Shown: positions 4,734 through 33,689 of the stretch, in pieces
How the letters are laid out: every line of letters starts with the position of its first letter
Position numbering within the stretch: the first letter of the stretch is position 1
Source: the human T2T-CHM13v2.0 reference genome, Homo sapiens
Length of the DNA: 64,000 nt
Assembly (NCBI RefSeq): GCF_009914755.1
Contig: NC_060940.1
Direction: 5' to 3' (one strand)
Position numbers and translations under genes: made by a program
The notes under the pieces: generated by a model
The model's database searches: none
What the model was told of the DNA's origin: nothing
The model's input: the letters and a program-made list of their open reading frames with translations, nothing else

Positions 4734-7370
4734 CTCTGTGTTATCTTGATTTTCTTTGTTTCCTCAAAACAGCTATTTTGAATGCTCTGTCTGACAGGTC
4801 ACATGTTGTCTATTTCTTCAACATTGTTCCCTGGAGGCTTATTTAGTTCATTCGGTGAGGTCATGTTTTCCTGGGTGTCGATACTTGCGTATGTTCTTTG
4901 CTGTCTTAGCATTGAAGAGTTAGGTATTAATTGCACTCTTCACAGTCTGGTTTTGTTTGTGCCCTTCCTTCTTGACAAGGATTTCCAAGTATTCAAAGGG
5001 ACTTGGGTTTTTGCAGACTTGTAGATGCACTGCCTTGGTGGTCTTGAATAGGATCTGGTTCCCCAGGAAGAGATTTCTTGTTATTTTCCCTTGCTTTTTC
5101 CCAAACAAAGGGACTCTCTCTTTGTGCTGAACCTCCTGGAACTGGGGGTGTGGTGTTGCAAGTACTCTTGTTTCCATGACCACAGGAACTGTGCTGGGTT
5201 GGAACAAAAGCCATAACAGCACTGGGTTTTGCCCAAGGCCCACTGCACTGTAACTGCTACCTGGCTACCACTTATGTTCACTCAAGCCTGTAAGGCTCTG
5301 CAATCTGCAGGTGATAAAGCCAGCTAGGTTTGCATCCTTCCCTTCAGTGTAGCAAGTTGCCCTGGGCCCTGGGGGAGTCTAGAGATGCTATTTGGGAGCC
5401 AGAAATTTGAGTCAATAATCTTAGAAACTCAACTGATGTTTGATTTCATTTCAGCTATGTTGGCACTCTAACCACAATATAAAGTCCTTCCCACTCTTCC
5501 CCCCGCCTTCTATAGTCACGGGAGCCTCTCCCTGTGGGCACTACCACAACCAGCTCACAAGGGCATTCTTCCAGTCCATCACCAATATTCACTTAAAGCC
5601 CAAGGACTCTTCCATCAGTCTGTGGTGAATGCTGCCTGGCCTGGGACTCACTCTTCAGGACAGTGGGCTAGACTCTGTCCCAGGGCAGGTCCAGAACATG
5701 CTGTCCAAGAGCCTTGGCCTGGATTCGGGGACCCTAAGTGCCTGCTTGTTTTTTTACTGCACTGTGGATGAGCTGGTACCTAAGGAGCAAGAGAAAGTCC
5801 CTCTTAATTTCCCCTTTGCTTTTTTTCAATAGAAGTCCTTCACTGTAGCCACCACAACTAGGAATGTGCTGGGTCACATCTGAATTCAGCACGTTTTAGA
5901 ACCCAAGGCCCATGGCATACTACCTGAGCTTTGCTGTTGGTTATTCAGGGTCCAAGGGCCCTTTGGTTAGCAGGTGATGAGTCCTTTCAGGACCGAGTCC
6001 TCTCCTTCAAGGTAGCAGTTTCCCTTTTGGCCCAGGGTGTGTCTGGAAATATCATTTGGAAGCTGGGTCCTGGAATGGTGGTTTTATAACTCCGCCTGAT
6101 GCCATATTCTACTCTGGCTAAGCAGGTATTCAAGATGCAAGGCAAAGTCCTCTTTATGCTTTGCTCTCCATCCCTTAAGCAGAAGGAAGGAGACACTTTC
6201 ATTACTGCAAGCCGCACTGCCTGGGCTTGGTGGTGAGATGGTACAAGCACTCCTTTAGCCAGCCCACCTATCGTCTCCCTAGGTCACATGCCACTCTAGT
6301 CCTCTGGCTCTGAGCCCAGCCCAGCAGTAGGAGTTGCCTAGGAACTGCAGTCCTTGTGTCCTATACTGCCTTTCAAATTTACCTAGAACCCCAGAGCACT
6401 TTGGCCCATGGTGGCAAGGCTTGTGGAGAAACTTGACTTTCAACCATTGGGATGGGCAATTCCTCTTTGGCTAGGTCCAAATGCTCCTTCCCTGTGTGGA
6501 AACTGGCTAAGCCCAGCACCACATTACCTTCTGCTATGACAGGGCAGCACTGAGTTCAATGTAATCTTCCCCTATCACTGCACTCTCCCTCCCCTAAATG
6601 CACAGACTCTCCCCGCTGCACTGAGCTGCCAGGAGATGGCGAGGGGTGGTACTGGCAAATCAAGACTGTCTGTCCTGCTCTCCTCAATGCCTTTTACCAA
6701 GGTATGATGTTAAAATGGGGTACTGTGATTGCTCACCTGATTTTTGGTTCTTCTGATGGTGCTTTTCTGTGTACAGATAATTGTTAAAATTTGGTATTCC
6801 CATGAAGGGTATAATTGGTTTGGGCTTCTGTTCCACCCTTTTGCTCTGCCCTCTTCACTACCATATTCTTGCCTGATCTTTAATCTACAAAACGTTTCTG
6901 TTCATATTTAATGTAAAACAAGTTCACACAGAGGACTCAACCTAATGCCCTCTTACATAACAATTTTGAATTTGGGAACTGTTTGTAGTGGTGGGCTTTT
7001 ATATTTTTTACTCTTATGAAATTGTTTGGTTCAACAAATTATACTCTGTAGGGTCCCATTACTGGTTCTCCCTCTTATGCAATGATATGAGCTGTAGATC
7101 CAGCAGAAGTCAGTTCCCTCTGTTATTTGCCCTGTTTCATAATCATATTCATGGTCTATCCACACATTGCACAATCAATGCACATCTCTCCAGGAAGCTT
7201 TTTTTTTTTTTTAAACTGAAAATCATGTTTCACCTCCCTGACACCACTACAACCTGAAACTCTTACATGGCTTCCTATTTTTTCTTAGAATATGGCCAAT
7301 AACATCTAACATATATTTAAAGTTTCTCTTTGTGTCTGATGCTCTTCCATTTGGTTGCAGAAGTTACTTT

Positions 7371-25878: not shown

Positions 25879-28147
25879 GCAAGATGGTATAAGGATTAAA
25901 TGGAAAAATGTACAATAAAAATTATTATAGTTCCTGGAACATAGGCCTGCAATTGGTGGTCATTGACATGGTGGCAGTGACAGTGGTGAAAGTGACGGTG
26001 ATGATATTATTCCACTTGATACAATATATTTTGTACAGTAGGAATTTTCTTGAAATACCAAATTAATAATCTTTTTGTGCATGACTTGTTTTCTTATTCT
26101 CTCTTATGTTTTGTACCTTTGCCCTATGTACTCTTCTTCTGATTGAAATGTTGTTTATCTTTCCCTCTCAACCTACACTCATTCCTAACTCCTATCTCCT
26201 TGTTAATTCTTACCCCCATAACAGAAATTAGCAAAAATATTACATACTCAAAAAGACCTGTCTGGAGATCTCTGCCTAGGTCACATCCACATAAATATTC
26301 TTCCAATGTGCCACTCCGAGCACATTATCTGAGTTATGATTTGTATCTGTGTGATTTGTGTATAGGTGTGAGTCATCTTGCATACTAGCTATATGTTCCA
26401 CAGGTGTAGGGTGTATATTTTTGCTCAACATGGTATCCCAACACATAGCTCAGATTCTGGCCCAGGGTTGCTATGTAACACACATTTAGTGCATAAATTT
26501 GTGATTAAAGATACAGGAAAAAAAGGGGTTATAGCAAATGAAGATTGTGGGGGACTAATAGCAAGGAGCATTATTCTAAGCAGTGAAAACCTCTCCAGTC
26601 TGTTTCCAATAGAGTTTCTTTATTGTTCCTTTTTCAACCCCTTTTTAAATCCTTATAATGGCTATTCAGGTCTCCGCACGTGTTTATTTCTTTGTTCTTC
26701 ATGCAATTTCTTCCTTCCAAAGAGTCCATTTGGTAGCTCTGATAAGTCAAGAGAAGATATGCATCCTCTCGGCTTTCAGAGCTCTGCAGTGTAGACTTGG
26801 CTAAAGTCCTGAAGCCCCCCAAAATATAAAGAGCCAGCTGAACATGCGGCATGAATTTACCTTTCTCCTCGTGTTTACTGTCTCTGCATTTCTGGTTCAA
26901 CTTCAGTTGCCTGAGTTAATATTCATCCTCAAAAACTTGAAAGAGCCTAATTTTTGCATTTTTGGAAGATATCCTAGAAGAGGTGTATTTCTCCTTTTAT
27001 AAAAGGAATCTTTTACAATATGAGTGAAGCCTTCTTTAATAATACAAATTATGAATGCAAATTTGCATGACCAAAATCTTTTATTTAAAATGAATGAAGA
27101 AATCATAGCAGATTACAAACTGAAAAGATTACAAATATCACACAGTCCAAAAGAATAGCATATTTTTAATTAATTAACTTATTGAAACACTTCCATAATA
27201 CTTTTTGTTTTCTAAAGTATTTGGCTGTGTAGTCTCATGACAGTTTTGGATTATCCTGTTTTATAGAGTGAATAGAAAGTTATTTTCAGTCTTTTATCTA
27301 GCAAGTTTGATTGTTTTTTGCTTATTTTTCTTGAATTATCAACGATATCCTTGAAGGAATAAAAATGGTGATTTGACTAGGTTTCAGTGAGAACAAAATT
27401 CTTTCTTTACAAAGTTACATGTGTATGGGTTAGAAGATTATTCCACACACAAGTTTTAAATTTTACATCTTTTTTCTCCTCCATCGCTTAGTTCTGATGT
27501 TGGGGGCCATAGGACATTTTTGCATAATGATACCAACTATTTATGTTTTGCTATGAGAGACAGAATCATAGCTTGGGAAGTCATTCTCACTTTGAGACAG
27601 CCAGCAGTAGCAACCATACACACAGCAAACGAACTATATAAAAATATTCTGTGAAATCCATGTATTCCTGGCACGATTTTCCTTTAGCCAGATCCCAAAA
27701 ATGTCCATGGAGCACCTCAACTCCAACTAACCCAAGCAAAGAGTAAGACATAGAAGGATTTGGGAAGGAAAGACACAATGACCAATCAAGATTAAAATGT
27801 TTTACTTTGCAAATTGTATAAAAGCCTGACAATCTGGCTACGGTGGTGGACCCTCTGAAATAATGGGCCCCTGTGTTGAGCTGCTTTTTTGTTTTGGTAA
27901 ATATATCTTTTCTTCCTAAACAAACTCCTCTTGGCAAACATCATTCAGTAACACGAGCCTTCTCTCTGTCAGGAAAATAATATATTATCAGGAACATCAT
28001 AAGGATACAATGCTGATGGCATGTTTCTTTTCAGAGGAGGGATATTGAATCAAAGTGCTGGCCTAGATCCTACCTACTACTAGATTCCAGATTACACTGA
28101 AGAGGACGTAGTAAGAATAATTGTTACCATAGCTCTCATAGCAAGCT

Positions 28148-28459
<312 letters not shown>

Positions 28460-28968
28460 AGCAAGCTTTTTTTAAACTACATACTGTATAACATACACTG
28501 TGTCAAGAGTTACATGATGTATTTCATTGTTTTTTATGATGTCTCTGTGAGAATGTCTGTGTAATAGTTTCACAGTACAGGCAAAAATGCTGAAACATAG
28601 ACAAATTAAGTAAACTATCCCAATGATAAGCTGGTAGAATTGGCATTTTCAGTACGGAAATCTGATTCCAGTGCTCTTAGCCACTATATTTCAGTGCTTC
28701 TTGGTTTCTTATACATATCTTTTCTCAAAAATGTAAAGAATCTAAGTTTTGGAATGCAAACAAGTTAAATTTAAATCTCCCTTGGAATATCACTAGTTAA
28801 ATGAATCAGTTTCTTTTTACTGTTATCAATTAAATTTTGCTTCTTATCTGTAGGATAATAATTTTCAAGTACATACTTCATAACACTTTTTGAAAAATAA
28901 GTGAGATAATGTGCAAGACAACCTTTAGCCCATTGGACAAGGCATGTCTCTGAGCTGTAGTTTCTTCA

Positions 28969-29368
28969 TGTCAGGCCTCTGAGCCTAAGCCAAGCCATCG
29001 CATCTTCTGTGACTTGCACGTATGCATCCAGATGGCCTGAAGGAACTGAAGATCTACAAAAGAAGTAAAAATAGCCTTAACTGATGACATTCCACCATAG
29101 TGATTTGTTCCTGCACTACCTTAACTGATCAATGTACTTTGTAATTCTCCGCACCCTTGAGAATGTACTTTGTGAGATCCACCCCTGCCTGCAAAACATT
29201 GCTCTTAACTTCACCGCCTATCTTAAAACTTGTAAGAACTAATGATAATCCACCACATTTTGCTGACTCTCTTTTCGGACTCAGCCTACCTGCACCCAGG
29301 TGAAATAAACAGCTTTATTGCTCACACAAAGCCTGTTTGGTGGTCTCTTCACACAGACGCACATGAAA
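28969..29368 (+). promoter_or_regulatory. 5' LTR, LTR7 family (LTR7B-like)
   Basis: tgtcaggcctctgagcc..gaaataaacagc..acatgaaa; AATAAA present; aligns without gaps to the 3' LTR. Confidence 0.93.
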
Positions 29369-29370
29369 TT

Positions 29371-29388
29371 TGGTGCCGTGACTCGGAT
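29371..29388 (+). other. tRNA-His primer-binding site
   Basis: tggtgccgtgactcggat, 2 nt after the LTR; complement of the 3' 18 nt of tRNA-His(GUG). Confidence 0.95.
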
Positions 29389-29510
29389 TTGAAATTGGTG
29401 AGATGTTTCTTGGGCTGGTCGGTCTGAGGACCTGAGGTCGTAGGTGGATCTTTTTCATGGAGCAAAGAGCAGGAGGACAGGGGATTGATCTCCCAAGGGA
29501 GGTCCCCCCG
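29384..29510 (-). other. Inverted HERV-H leader segment (post-PBS up to the major splice donor)
   Basis: Reverse complement reads cggggggacctcccttgggagatcaatcccctgtcc...catctcaccaatttcaaatccg, the sequence that normally follows the HERV-H PBS on the plus strand. Confidence 0.9.
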
Positions 29511-30133
29511 TTCCCCTCATGACACCGACACAACAAAAAAGAGTTATTCCACTAATTCCCTTGATGGTCAGTTTAGGACTTTCTGCCTCCACTATTGCTC
29601 TCAGTACTGGAATAGCAGGCATTTCAACCTCTGTCACGACCTTCCGTAGCCTGTCTAATGACTTCTCTGCTAGCTTCACAGACATATCACAAACTTTATC
29701 AGTCCTCCAGGCCCAAGTTGACTCTTTAGCTGCAGTTGTCCTCCAAAACCGCTGAGGCCTTGACTTACTCACTGCTGAAAAAGGAGGACTCTGTATATTC
29801 TTAAATGAAGAGAGTTGTTTTTACCTAAATCAATCTGGCCAGGTGTATGACAACAAAAAAACTCAAGGATAGAGCCCAAAAACTTGCCAACCAAGCAAGT
29901 AATTACGCTGAATCCCTTGGGCACTCTCTAATTGGATGTCCTGGGTCCTCCCAATTTTTAGTCCTTTAATACCCATTTTTCTCCTTCTTTTATTCGGACC
30001 TTGTATCTTCCATTTAGTTTCTCAATTCATCCAAAACCGTATCCAGGCCATGACCAATCATTCTATACGACAAATGTTTCTTCTAACATCCCCACAATAT
30101 CACCCCTTACCACAAGACCTCCCTTCAGCTTAA
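29511..30133 (+). pseudogene. env: HERV-H env TM remnant (cleavage site, fusion peptide, immunosuppressive domain, membrane anchor, tail), disrupted
   Basis: TQQKR|VIPLIPLMVSLGLS...[26 protein letters not shown]...MSWVLPIFSPLIPIFLLLLFGPCIF...LPSA*. TGA at 29753-29755 and frameshifting between ~29850 and ~29920. Confidence 0.93.
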
Positions 30134-30295
30134 TCTCTCCCACTCTAGGTTCCCACGCTGCCCCTAATCCCGCTTGAAGCAGCCCTGAGAAACATCACCC
30201 ATTCTCTCTCCATACCACCGCCCAAAAATTTTCGCCGCCCCAACACTTCAACACTATTTTGTGTTATTTTTCTTATTAATATAAGAAGGCAGGAA

Positions 30296-30695
30296 TATCA
30301 GGCCTCTGAACCCAAGCCAAGCCATCGCATCCCCTGTGACTTGCAGGTATACATCCAGATGGCCTGAAGTAACTGAAGATCCACAAAAGAAGTAAAAATA
30401 GCCTTAACTGATGACATTCCAACATTGTGATTTGTTCCTGCCCCACCCTAACTGATCAATGTACTTTGTAATTCTCCCCACCCTTGAGAATGTACTTTGT
30501 GAGATCCACCCCTACCCGCAAAACATTGCTCTTAACTTCACCACCTATCCCAAAACCTGTAAGAACTAATGATAATACACCACCCTTTGCTGACTCTCTT
30601 TTCGGACTCAGCCCACCTGCACCCAGGTGAAATAAACAGCTTTATTGCTCACACAAACCCTGTTTGGTGGTCTCTTCACAGGGACGCACATGAAA
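30296..30695 (+). promoter_or_regulatory. 3' LTR, LTR7 family (LTR7B-like), preceded by the polypurine tract
   Basis: aagaaggcaggaa then tatcaggcctctgaaccc..catgaaa. Confidence 0.93.
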
Positions 30696-30740
30696 CTTCA
30701 CACAGCAGCTATTTGCCCTTAGGCACCTCCATTTCCTTTA

Positions 30741-31113
<373 letters not shown>

Positions 31114-33689
31114 AAGATAAAATGGAAAACAAAGGTGAAAGGGGTATATCAATTGTAAAGTATAATGCAAAATATACGTAGCTAATATTTTCTACTATCT
31201 TTTTTAGCAACCATTACTAGTGTCATATTTTGAATTCATAGAACATTATGGCTACTAAGTATATGAACATCAGGTGTTTGAAAAGTCAGATAAAACTTGG
31301 GCCTGTGTCCATCTTTGAGGAAAGGGAGGAGACAGGAAAATGAGTTTTAAGTTCGTCCAATCAATTAAAACTAAATTCCTGGTGGCGTAAGTTGTTTCTG
31401 GTTTTGACATTTTTGTCCCCATAGGTGGTGAGCACAGAGCCTAGGTGGACTACTAGGTCACTTTTACTTTAATTTCTCTTTGCCACAAAAACAGACTCTG
31501 CCTGGAGTTCAACAATAAAACATTTTAAAGTAGGCAATAAAAAAAAATCACAGTTTTTTATCCATTAATGTAGCTGTATTTTAGACACAGTCTCCAGATT
31601 ATTCCTTTTTTTATAATGAGGATGACATTTTCTTTGGTGTTGCTTTAAAAATGTAGACTGTAAATGCTGAGAAAGAGGCAATTCTTACACAGTGCATTAA
31701 GTGCATTATATTAATTAATTTACATGTCTTTACTGTGCCTCATTCATCCAATTCACACATCTTCCCTAGACCTCAATTTACTATGAAAGCAGTGTCTCTC
31801 CTTACACTTTAATTTGGACCAAGACCAAGTGAAACCAAGATGGAAGGGAGATATAAAAAAAGGTGGACATGGTTTATTATAGGGAGAGAGGAAGCAAAAT
31901 GGCCTCTTAGATATTTCCAACAGAGGACATGACATTTTCAGAAGAGTCAAAAAAAATTTGTAAAGTCACCTTTTCCATTTCGTCACCCATTTACTGTTGG
32001 TATATTCATGGCTAGTTACAAGAAAAGGCAGGGTAAAGTCACACTAGGGAACAGTAATTCACTTAGGTAATCATCAGAAAGGAGTAATGGGGAAGTTTCT
32101 AAAATGCCAGTGTACACAAGATATTGTTGTGGTACGATTAATGAGCCAAAGGGAGAAATGCCCTTCAAGTAGGCTGACAGTTGCCAAGTCCTCTGACATT
32201 TTACCATGTGGCCACAGCCTCTTAAATTCCTTCTGATGCTGAACTCCACTGTAAGATCAGAAAGGTAAATGAGAACAAGAGCAGAAGTTCATTCTTCTGA
32301 GGAATTCATGATTTCCTAGTGTAGCTTGTGAATCTCTAATTGCTGCTGCCAATCATGTTTGGCCTTCTTACCTGATCTTTAGTCTGTCAAGCTCATCAAT
32401 AAAGATTTTCAGCTCAGTAAAAGCAGAAGATTCCAAAACTACAATGGTTCTCTATGACTAAACACATTACTCAATTCTAATATGGCTTTTGGTTTTCTCG
32501 CTATTGCCTTAAGTCTTAACTTTTCCCTAATGTCATTCACTCTTATGTCATCTTTCTCTGCCTTCTATACCTGGCATCAAAGCAGAATACCCAACTCTTT
32601 CTTCCTGCAGTCATCTAGACAGACAAGCACAAGTACGTTTATCTTTTTAAGGATTACACCCTGATTAATAAGGGAAAGGTAGAATGATACTGACAAAATA
32701 ACAATGAAAGAATAAACTAATATTTCAGACTTATATACAGTTATCACAGTTCATGGCTCTAGACTGTAGTTTCTACCATCCTTTTAATATTATAAATGGA
32801 CATAACATTTGGCTGACATTCTTAAATATTTTTCCTATGCTTTTAACTCACTGACTATTTCTCAGTCTTACAGTCTAAACACTATGATGATATGTGTTTT
32901 GATAATTCTTAAAGTGAACACGTCTCAATCAACTATACTGCACAGCACAGAACACAGCACTTCCTTGTTCAAATTGTTAATGTGTGTAACTAAGCACTGC
33001 AGCTTGGGTTAGGTTTCTTTTGCCACTCCTGCTTTCCAAGAGTGACTCTCACCTTCTTCTCCTTACACATCTTTTTTTCTCAGATCTTAGATCCAATTCG
33101 GGAAAACTCATAGGATCCCCAAGCAGGTTACTTCATAGGTTAGCAACAGGATCATCCCCATGGTGTCCATGTCTCCTTCTACCCCAGTTCCTGTAACCAG
33201 GTCCCTGCCTCTTCTCTGCTTTGCTCTTCCTAATATCACCCTGTTATTGGGGTCATCCCTTACCCTATGCGGCTTATTACACTCCCCAAGAATTTCATTC
33301 AGAGCATAGGAAGTCCCCTGTATCCTTGGAGCCATATGCTCTTGTGAAACCTGGTTAGATGATTTGGTATCTGTCCTGGCCACTTCCTATGTTTCATTCT
33401 ACTGCTTGTACAGAAAGTAGACTTGCCTATAACCATGGCTCCATTCAAAATGCAGACATTTTTATCATTAAGGAAAGATCAATTTTGATGCATACAAAAA
33501 TCTCTGGAATGGGAGTGTAGATGCCTCTAAGGAACTACTTTCAGGATCTTTAGTCGGTCCCCTCTATCCCAGCCCCTCATGAATTAACTGTAAGTGTGTC
33601 TGTGCCCACAGGTTCAGTTTCACCCTGTGGCTTAGTGAACGACACAATTGGGGCAAGAAAAATACCAATTGACGTTTATTACTCATGGT

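What the first reader, a model, noticed from the sequence alone, without database searches (positions are those of the whole stretch)
29369..29530. HERV-H leader inverted exactly between the PBS end and the splice-donor position, then fused to env
Seen: after the 18-nt PBS (ends CGGAT, 29388) the sequence continues as the reverse complement of the HERV-H leader to 29510, then switches to plus-sense env (ttcccctcatgacacc). Recalled consensus: the leader normally reads PBS-cggggg...aatttcaaATCCG|gtaag. The inversion therefore uses a 5-nt inverted microhomology (CGGAT/ATCCG) at one end and stops at the first base after the PBS at the other. The GT donor, the rest of the leader, gag, pro, pol and env SU (several kb) are absent, yet both LTRs and a clean 5-bp TSD remain, which indicates integrase-mediated insertion. 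This is not the usual solo-LTR, spliced-retrocopy or RTVL-H2-type deletion structure.
Basis: partly seen in the sequence, partly recalled or inferred. Interest (0 to 1): 0.75.

Follow-up and report, generated by a model that had tools for sequence, protein, structure and literature searches.

The report
Recurrent inverted-leader defect in HERV-H proviruses
A small, dead HERV-H provirus has the stretch just after its primer-binding site copied backwards and joined to the end of env, and two unrelated HERV-H copies share the same first junction, which points to a repeated copying error by the ancient virus's reverse transcriptase.

Summary
Window 28969-30695 is a 1.7-kb HERV-H provirus: 400-nt LTR, tRNA-His primer-binding site (PBS) ending CGGAT at 29388, the ~126-nt leader in reverse complement (29389-29510), about 785 nt of the env 3' end, 400-nt LTR, and a perfect 5-bp duplication CTTCA. 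In 28 of 29 other HERV-H loci examined the leader lies the other way.

The left junction (PBS end joined to the leader's ATCCG at the splice donor) is not unique. It also occurs in proviruses on chr1 and chr3. All three right junctions differ and each is single-copy. The flanks differ, and the LTRs fall in three separate, well-supported clades. The chr3 copy also carries 12 nt of inverted PBS, so this is a replicative inverted copy and not a flip.

Best reading (about 0.55): a recurrent reverse-transcription error. Plus-strand strong-stop DNA, ending ...CGGAT, mis-anneals to ATCCG on still-uncopied leader RNA, copies it back toward the PBS, then jumps to minus-strand DNA further downstream.

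Not excluded: a single origin spread by recombination, or host replication template switching.

This is a new variant of a known kind, namely defective proviruses from aberrant strand transfer. Interest is moderate.

The parts
28964..28968 (.). left copy of the 5-bp target-site duplication (CTTCA)
   Evidence: direct reading; identical to 30696-30700
28969..29368 (+). 5' LTR (LTR7-type, 400 nt)
   Evidence: 371 of 399 aligned bases identical to the 3' LTR; 92-95% identical to the LTRs of a chr7 provirus
29371..29388 (+). 18-nt primer-binding site complementary to the tRNA-His 3' end; its last 5 nt (29384-29388, CGGAT) are the junction microhomology
   Evidence: tRNA-His gene found by ARAGORN and read
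29389..29510 (-). HERV-H leader (PBS+1 to the base before the splice donor) in reverse complement; one extra C in the terminal C-run; G at 29510 is shared with env
   Evidence: 98.4% of 125 nt to the chr7 copy on the reverse strand
29511..30295 (+). 3' end of env, starting about 10 codons before the basic SU/TM cleavage-type motif, with stop codons; then the untranslated tail and a purine tract (about 30283-30295)
   Evidence: forward alignment from chr7 copy position 6539; translation, 5 stops in 210 codons
30296..30695 (+). 3' LTR (400 nt; first bases TATCAGG instead of TGTCAGG)
30696..30700 (.). right copy of the target-site duplication (CTTCA)

Best explanation
This is a provirus that was defective on arrival, made by an aberrant plus-strand (second) transfer during reverse transcription. 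The same error happened independently at least three times in HERV-H history.

Inferred steps:
1. Plus-strand strong-stop DNA ends with the 18-nt copy of the tRNA-His 3' end (...CGGAT-3').
2. Instead of pairing with the PBS copy on minus-strand DNA, its last 5 nt pair with ATCCG on leader RNA 126 nt downstream. That RNA is still intact because minus-strand synthesis has not yet reached it.
3. Reverse transcriptase extends, copying the leader backwards toward the 5' end of the RNA. That end lies at the PBS, because U5-R RNA has already been degraded.
4. The new 3' end then pairs by 1-3 nt, or imperfect longer, microhomology with minus-strand DNA further downstream. Synthesis completes a double-stranded DNA with two LTRs.
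5. Integrase inserts this DNA.

Shown: the structure, the shared left junction, the differing right junctions, the inverted duplication of PBS bases in the chr3 copy, the intact LTRs and the target-site duplications. Inferred: which strand and which template were used, and the order of events.
For: (1) The left junction is found at exactly three loci in this genome: the window, chr1:233.075 Mb and chr3:181.011 Mb. This comes from a 28-mer search with up to 3 mismatches (reversed-pattern control 0) and an 80-nt query (3 full-length matches at 100, 98 and 88% identity; all other matches, to 37 further loci, cover one half only; 40 of 908 candidates scored).

(2) The right ends differ. In chr1 the inverted copy stops about 9 nt short of PBS+1 and resumes near chr7-copy position 1115. 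In the window it stops at PBS+1 and resumes at 6539. In chr3 it runs 12 nt into the PBS complement and resumes at 1006. Each right junction is single-copy.

(3) In chr3, PBS bases 7-18 are present twice, once inverted. A conservative flip cannot do this; copying can.

(4) The inverted copy never enters U5, as expected if the template is RNA trimmed back to the PBS (3 of 3).

(5) Flanks and duplications differ: CTTCA in the window and GTAAT in chr1.

(6) LTR pairs differ by 28/399 (window), 10/434 (chr1) and 21/413 (chr3). The three sit in three clades with 100/100 support, each together with normal-leader copies. Holding them as one clade costs 340 log-likelihood units, p-AU 1.4e-52.

(7) The chr3 U5 end, within 10 nt of the PBS, carries its own clade's variant and not that of the window or chr1.

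(8) Screens for anything abnormal right after a preserved PBS (24 and 18 hits; 8 are LTR7-linked) found 3 inverted leaders, 1 tRNA read-through with deletion, 2 small deletions and 2 point-mutated leaders. By comparison, 516 loci have a normal leader start. The PBS 3' end is therefore a specific trouble spot, and another kind of aberrant second transfer is also fossilised in this family.

(9) ATCCG occurs only twice in the 7.5-kb chr7 copy, and the nearer site was used 3 of 3 times.

(10) HIV-1 shows the analogous class: deletions starting at the PBS after deferred plus-strand transfer (PMC12657518, passages read).
Against: No step of the mechanism is observed directly. The junction sits at the end of the PBS partly because the microhomology sits there, so a mechanism that uses the 5-nt inverted repeat without any strong-stop DNA gives the same left junction.

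The LTR tree does not fix the ancestry of the leader. In virions carrying two different RNAs, U3, U5 and the leader can come from different parents. A U5 variant (TTA versus CAG) is scattered across the LTR clades. The window and chr1 both carry TTA, whereas the window's own U3 clade-mates carry CAG.

A tree of about 740 nt of internal sequence is star-like and does not reject chr1 plus chr3 as a clade (p-AU 0.459). The leader is too conserved to show ancestry: the three share no derived base, but the power of that comparison is low.

Three of three uses of the nearer of two ATCCG sites is only p = 0.125 if both sites were equally likely. Leader RNA folding gives no reason for this site to be preferred (z = 0.62, and no CGGAU/AUCCG stem in the best structure).
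Confidence: 0.55

Rival explanations
1. Single origin. One inverted-leader genome (chr3-like) arose once, was packaged and copied again, and acquired other LTR types through co-packaged RNAs. It then suffered secondary deletions that removed the original right junction, perhaps provoked by the PBS / inverted-PBS hairpin.
For: The left junction is identical in all three. One deletion would turn a chr3-type structure into the chr1 type, and one would turn it into the window type. The window and chr1 share the TTA U5 variant, while the window's U3 clade-mates have CAG. The internal tree does not reject a chr1 plus chr3 clade (p-AU 0.459).
Against: No two copies share a right junction. There are only 3 copies although the LTR-pair divergences span 2.3% to 7.0%, so the lineage would have persisted a long time with almost no progeny. 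The LTR clades are distinct. The chr3 U5 end next to the PBS is of another type. No derived base is shared in the inverted leader. TTA is common (10 of 27 normal copies listed), so sharing it says little.
Confidence: 0.15
2. Post-integration rearrangement. Host DNA replication switched template at the 5-nt inverted repeat CGGAT...ATCCG, copied the opposite strand back, and resumed downstream. This would have happened separately in three resident proviruses.
For: Inverted copy plus adjacent deletion with microhomology is also the signature of replication template switching. The chr1 and chr3 deletions are short, about 335 and 226 nt.
Against: The same 5-mer pair would have to be used three times among hundreds of copies, each holding many other inverted 5-mers. 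In the window the return jump is 5.7 kb. The left breakpoint coincides with the natural end of strong-stop DNA, and the inverted copy stops at or within the PBS in all 3. The one tRNA read-through copy shows that errors at this point during reverse transcription did enter the germ line.
Confidence: 0.15
3. A different reverse-transcription route. The growing minus strand jumped onto a second, completed minus-strand DNA (from the co-packaged RNA), copied the leader in sense, and then paired through ATCCG with the strong-stop DNA.
For: It gives the same final sequence, and two RNAs are packaged per virion (established retrovirology, recalled).
Against: Both switch points would be arbitrary positions that happen to coincide with PBS+1 and the ATCCG site. 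In the preferred model both donor ends are natural termini. No data here separate the two routes.
Confidence: 0.1
4. Assembly artefact or chance resemblance.
For: None found.
Against: The match E-values are about 1e-54. The junctions lie in a 1.7-kb element with diverged LTRs (7.0%) and a perfect duplication, inside unique flanks. The same left junction occurs at two other loci. Reads could not be inspected.
Confidence: 0.01

Closest known systems
HIV-1 defective proviruses from deferred or aberrant second-strand transfer with a tRNA(Lys3) insert (PMC12657518; passages read)
   Same: The rearrangement begins at the 3' end of the PBS copy, both LTRs are kept, and a deletion runs to a downstream point on minus-strand DNA. 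A direct HERV-H counterpart exists at chr5:129.19 Mb: PBS, then 7 nt of tRNA-His read-through, then gag.
   Different: Here the inserted block is the virus's own leader copied backwards, not tRNA. The acceptor is a fixed 5-nt site and the event recurs.
HIV-1 proviruses with inversions (PMC9278108; passages read: 1 of 78 with inversions and 1 of 78 with inversion plus deletion)
   Same: Inversion, with or without deletion, inside an integrated provirus, at about the one-percent level.
   Different: The passages I read give no shared junction or mechanism. Here there is one hot spot tied to the PBS end.
L1 twin priming (bioRxiv 10.1101/2021.12.20.472354; abstract in the search listing only)
   Same: Inversion plus internal loss, made during reverse transcription by a second priming event on the same RNA through short complementarity.
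   Different: L1 uses target-primed reverse transcription on chromosomal DNA ends. It is not retroviral strong-stop DNA, and there are no LTRs or integrase.
Common deleted HERV-H forms, solo LTRs and spliced retrocopies (recalled, not tested against a library)
   Same: LTR7-type LTRs, His PBS, and large internal loss.
   Different: None of these has an inverted leader. A spliced copy would join the leader in sense at the donor to an acceptor, whereas here the bases before the resumption points are not AG in the window and chr3.

Membership tests
HERV-H provirus | Two LTRs of LTR7 type flanked by a short target-site duplication | tested here: met
   CTTCA on both sides. The name LTR7 is recalled; no repeat library was available.
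HERV-H provirus | PBS complementary to the tRNA-His 3' end | tested here: met
   18 of 18 against a human tRNA-His(GTG) gene plus CCA
HERV-H provirus | Internal sequence homologous to other HERV-H copies | tested here: met
Aberrant plus-strand-transfer product | Rearrangement starts exactly at the 3' end of the 18-nt PBS copy | tested here: met
   true of all three loci, within the 5-nt ambiguity
Aberrant plus-strand-transfer product | Complete LTRs at both ends and integrase-type duplication | tested here: met
   window and chr1 are clean. chr3 is unclear: ATGAA versus ATGGT, with GGTGATG lying 2 nt outside both LTR ends.
Aberrant plus-strand-transfer product | The event took place during reverse transcription, before integration | not testable with these tools
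   needs orthologous loci in other primates or an assay
tRNA read-through class (as in HIV-1) | tRNA bases beyond the 18-nt copy at the junction | tested here: not met
   The junction reads as the leader complement (TTGAA; TTAAA in chr3), not the tRNA (TCGAA). Met only by the chr5 copy.
Mobilised non-autonomous subfamily | Several loci share both junctions but have different flanks | tested here: not met
   Each right junction occurs once; only the top 40 candidates were scored.
Conservative inversion between inverted repeats | Reciprocal junction kept (ATCCG followed by the GT donor), with no duplicated bases | tested here: not met
   The donor and what follows it are absent in all 3, and chr3 has 12 PBS bases duplicated in inverted order.
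Segmental duplication of one locus | Homologous flanks | tested here: not met
   Flanks and duplications differ. The window and chr7 flanks share only an Alu.

The most novel reading that the evidence does not exclude
HERV-H carried a built-in hot spot for failed second-strand transfer. The 5 bases just before its splice donor are the complement of the last 5 bases of its PBS. About 0.6% of integrations with a still-readable PBS (3 of about 524) therefore fixed a strong-stop DNA that primed on its own leader RNA. These fossils, together with one tRNA read-through copy, would preserve the in-vivo end of plus-strand strong-stop DNA and the state of minus-strand synthesis at the moment of the error, for a virus extinct for millions of years.
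Probability: 0.5. Interest if true: 0.55.

Novelty: new variant of a known kind. Interest (0 to 1): 0.45.

Why it matters
Defective proviruses made by strand-transfer errors are studied intensively in HIV, but only in fresh infections. Here the germ line has kept three products of one specific error, plus one tRNA read-through product, from an ancient retrovirus.

The products give a natural estimate of how often that error occurred. They define the acceptor site. They also make a testable prediction: a 5-nt complement of the PBS end close downstream is a liability.

For annotation, these copies lack the leader splice donor that HERV-H-driven transcripts use (a recalled point), so they should behave differently from ordinary LTR7/HERV-H loci. 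Beyond that, the element has no sign of function.

Tried and rejected
tRNA read-through helping the priming. The leader end matches the tRNA-His T-loop region at 9 of 10 bases. However, the junctions carry the leader's base and not the tRNA's in all 3 loci, and the chr3 base pattern cannot come from one CpG change. This idea is disfavoured.

RNA structure bringing the PBS end and ATCCG together. The fold of PBS plus leader has z = 0.62, and the best structure pairs the PBS start with CACCA instead.

Splice-acceptor use at the resumption points. These are not preceded by AG in the window or chr3.

Shared flanks with the chr7 relative. Only Alu-to-Alu similarity was found.

Leader alignment for ancestry. 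It was uninformative. The internal 740-nt tree was also uninformative.

Listing the bases after every PBS. I replaced this with two exclusion screens and a count of normal starts.

Pfam check of the env piece. The env assignment therefore rests on the alignment to the chr7 copy and on recalled motifs in the translation.

Literature. Six full-text searches returned no paper describing an inverted HERV-H leader. Older retrovirology papers on strand-transfer errors in single-cycle vectors are outside the searched library and were not seen.

Assembly reads, other primates and other human genomes could not be consulted.

Full report
WHAT IS THERE

Window 28969-30695 is a complete but tiny provirus. 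It consists of:
- a 400-nt LTR (28969-29368);
- TT, then an 18-nt primer-binding site (PBS, 29371-29388);
- 122 nt running to 29510;
- about 785 nt ending in a purine tract;
- a second 400-nt LTR (30296-30695).

CTTCA lies directly outside both LTRs. The two LTRs align over their whole length and differ at 28 of 399 aligned bases. The PBS is the exact complement of the 3' end of a human tRNA-His(GTG) gene plus CCA. I took that gene from the same genome and confirmed it with ARAGORN.

THE INVERSION IS REAL

A search of the window's own genome with 29369-29530 gave 40 scored matches out of 1025 candidates. Nearly all cover query positions 16-140 at 93-99% identity.

I mapped the window's LTR, PBS and leader block onto the 29 other loci fetched. 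In 28 of them the block lies in the opposite orientation relative to LTR and PBS. Normal copies read PBS, then CGGGGG..., and about 126 nt later ...AAATCCG followed by GTAAG.

In the window, the PBS (ending CGGAT) is followed by the complement of that block read from the ATCCG end back to the first base after the PBS. There is one extra C in the terminal C-run.

Against a 7.5-kb chr7 provirus with the same LTR type, the block aligns in reverse (98.4% of 125 nt). The sequence after it aligns forward from a point about 790 nt before that copy's 3' LTR. In frame, the region begins about 10 codons before a basic cleavage-type motif and continues through a hydrophobic stretch and a region I recognise from memory as transmembrane-subunit-like. 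It has 5 stops in 210 codons. A Pfam check of this piece was not completed (see Tried and rejected). The GT donor, the rest of the leader, gag, pro, pol and most of env are absent.

THE LEFT JUNCTION RECURS

A 28-letter pattern across the PBS/inverted-leader junction, allowing 3 mismatches, occurs three times in the genome and never in the reversed control. The sites are the window, chr1:233,075,176-203 (minus strand) and chr3:181,010,974-1,001. An 80-nt query centred on the junction gives the same three full-length matches (100, 98 and 88% identity). Every other listed match, to 37 further loci, covers only one half of the query (40 of 908 candidates scored).

The window's env junction occurs once.

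I fetched 10 kb around both other loci and mapped them on the chr7 copy.
- chr1 is a 5.8-kb provirus with LTRs differing at 10 of 434 bases and a clean GTAAT duplication.
- chr3 is a 7.3-kb provirus with LTRs differing at 21 of 413 bases and no clean duplication.

Both are otherwise collinear with ordinary HERV-H.

THE RIGHT ENDS DIFFER

- chr1: the inverted copy stops about 9 nt before the PBS-proximal end. Sense sequence resumes near chr7-copy position 1115, inside a tandem-repeat region, so the position is ambiguous by repeat units. About 335 nt are lost.
- Window: the inverted copy stops at the first base after the PBS and resumes at 6539. About 5.7 kb are lost.
- chr3: the inverted copy continues 12 nt into the complement of the PBS and resumes at 1006. 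226 nt are lost.

Queries of 80 nt across the chr1 and chr3 right junctions find only their own loci at full length.

Microhomology at the right junctions is short. In chr3 it is ACG, seen as normal copies matching from 3 nt before the junction. In the window it is one G, within an imperfect TCCC..G similarity. In chr1 it is ambiguous and G-rich.

Because chr3 holds PBS bases 7-18 twice, once inverted, the structure is an inverted copy made by synthesis and not a cut-and-flip.

ONE ORIGIN OR THREE?

Evidence for three origins:
- The flanks differ. The apparent flank similarity between the window and chr7 is only Alu to Alu.
- In a maximum-likelihood tree of 34 LTRs, the three proviruses fall in three clades with 100/100 support, each with normal-leader copies. 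Forcing them together is rejected (p-AU 1.4e-52).
- The U5 end of chr3, within 10 nt of the PBS, carries the variant of its own clade.

Limits of that evidence:
- LTR ancestry does not bind leader ancestry when two different RNAs are co-packaged.
- A U5 variant (TTA/CAG) is scattered over the clades. The window and chr1 both have TTA, while the window's U3 relatives have CAG.
- A tree of about 740 nt of internal sequence is unresolved and does not reject chr1 plus chr3 as a clade (p-AU 0.459).
- The leader itself is nearly invariant, so the absence of shared derived bases among the three has little power.

What weighs against a single replicating lineage is that no right junction is shared by any two loci. 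There are also only three copies, although their LTR-pair divergences span 2.3-7.0%.

HOW SPECIAL IS THE PBS END?

With the PBS written to tolerate CpG decay, 516 loci continue with the normal leader start (control 0). Two screens for a non-normal continuation gave 24 and 18 hits. Most are other elements or chance hits. Eight sit behind an LTR7-type U5:
- the three inverted leaders;
- one copy at chr5:129.19 Mb in which the PBS is followed by 7 bases that continue the tRNA-His sequence and then by gag;
- two small deletions;
- two point-mutated leaders.

That makes 3 of about 524 (0.6%). No provirus was found in which the PBS is followed by the complement of any other internal site. ATCCG occurs only twice in the chr7 copy, at the donor and 4.2 kb further on.

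MECHANISM (inferred)

Plus-strand strong-stop DNA ends with the 18-nt copy of the tRNA and must then transfer. While the minus strand is still being made, the leader RNA just downstream of the PBS is intact, and the U5-R RNA upstream has already been removed.

If the last 5 nt of the strong-stop DNA pair with ATCCG on that RNA, extension yields the complement of the leader. It can run at most to the end of the PBS. This fits stops at -9, 0 and +12 relative to the PBS boundary and none in U5. The new end then has to find minus-strand DNA, and wherever it pairs, everything between is lost.

In the window, the resumption point is about 785 nt upstream of the 3' LTR. The aberrant strand is about 546 nt long (LTR, PBS and leader). 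That is the order of distance the minus strand would have covered meanwhile. This is consistent with the model but is not evidence for it.

Both donor ends in this model are natural termini, which is why I prefer it to a route through a second minus strand.

HIV-1 provides the precedent for errors at this step. These include tRNA read-through inserts at deletion junctions (PMC12657518, passages read) and proviruses with inversions at roughly one percent (PMC9278108, passages read).

WHAT REMAINS OPEN

It is not settled whether the event preceded integration, whether the window and chr1 share the junction by descent, or why this ATCCG site is used. Folding gives no help on the last point. tRNA read-through is disfavoured by the junction bases. 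No reads, other human genomes or other primates were available.

IN PRINT?

Six full-text searches found no description of an inverted HERV-H leader. The older strand-transfer literature is outside the searched library.

VERDICT

The added result is recurrence at a fixed left junction with variable right junctions. This is a new variant of a known kind of defect and is of moderate interest.

Noticed in passing
L048 / L064 (chr5:129,189,760-784, minus strand): An HERV-H LTR and PBS are followed by 7 bases that continue the tRNA-His sequence past the usual 18. Sequence then resumes at gag (about chr7-copy position 2184), followed by a partial LTR. This is the HERV-H counterpart of the HIV-1 tRNA read-through deletion class, and the only such locus found by the pattern.
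   Followed up: partly
L062 (chrX:95,063,686) and L068 (chr3:192,961,328): Normal-orientation leaders with small deletions starting right at, or a few bases after, the PBS. In L062 about 22 nt are lost between two GAT triplets.
   Followed up: partly
window 30781-30799 and 31114-31132: A 19-nt direct repeat (18 of 19 identical) brackets the Alu at about 30807-31137, about 110 nt after the 3' LTR. It is probably the Alu's target-site duplication (family D4).
   Followed up: no
window 28147-28449 and 30810-31107: An antisense Alu before the provirus and a sense Alu after it form inverted arms, 82-89% complementary and 2.4-2.9 kb apart, bracketing the whole provirus (I1-I4).
   Followed up: no
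LTR alignment, 64-67 nt from the LTR end: A three-base U5 variant (TTA versus CAG) is scattered across otherwise well-separated LTR clades. This suggests exchange between U3 and U5 types among HERV-H lineages.
   Followed up: partly
L041, L046, L047, L049, L052, L053, L061; also L039: A different element family has the same tRNA-His PBS behind a ...AACATACTT end and a leader starting ATGTTCCC or ACATTCCC. L039 and L053 carry two or three PBS-like units in tandem.
   Followed up: no
L036 (chr3) inverted leader: The chr3 inverted leader has about 12 private differences in 126 nt, several times more than its LTR-pair divergence would predict per copy. Its internal part is also the most diverged from the chr7 copy (84-88%).
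   Followed up: no
L003 (chr11:94,353,182-315): In this normal copy the bases after the splice donor read GTAAGTCACC. With the preceding ATCCG, this resembles the complement of the PBS with a 3-nt insertion. This explains its longer match to the query.
   Followed up: partly
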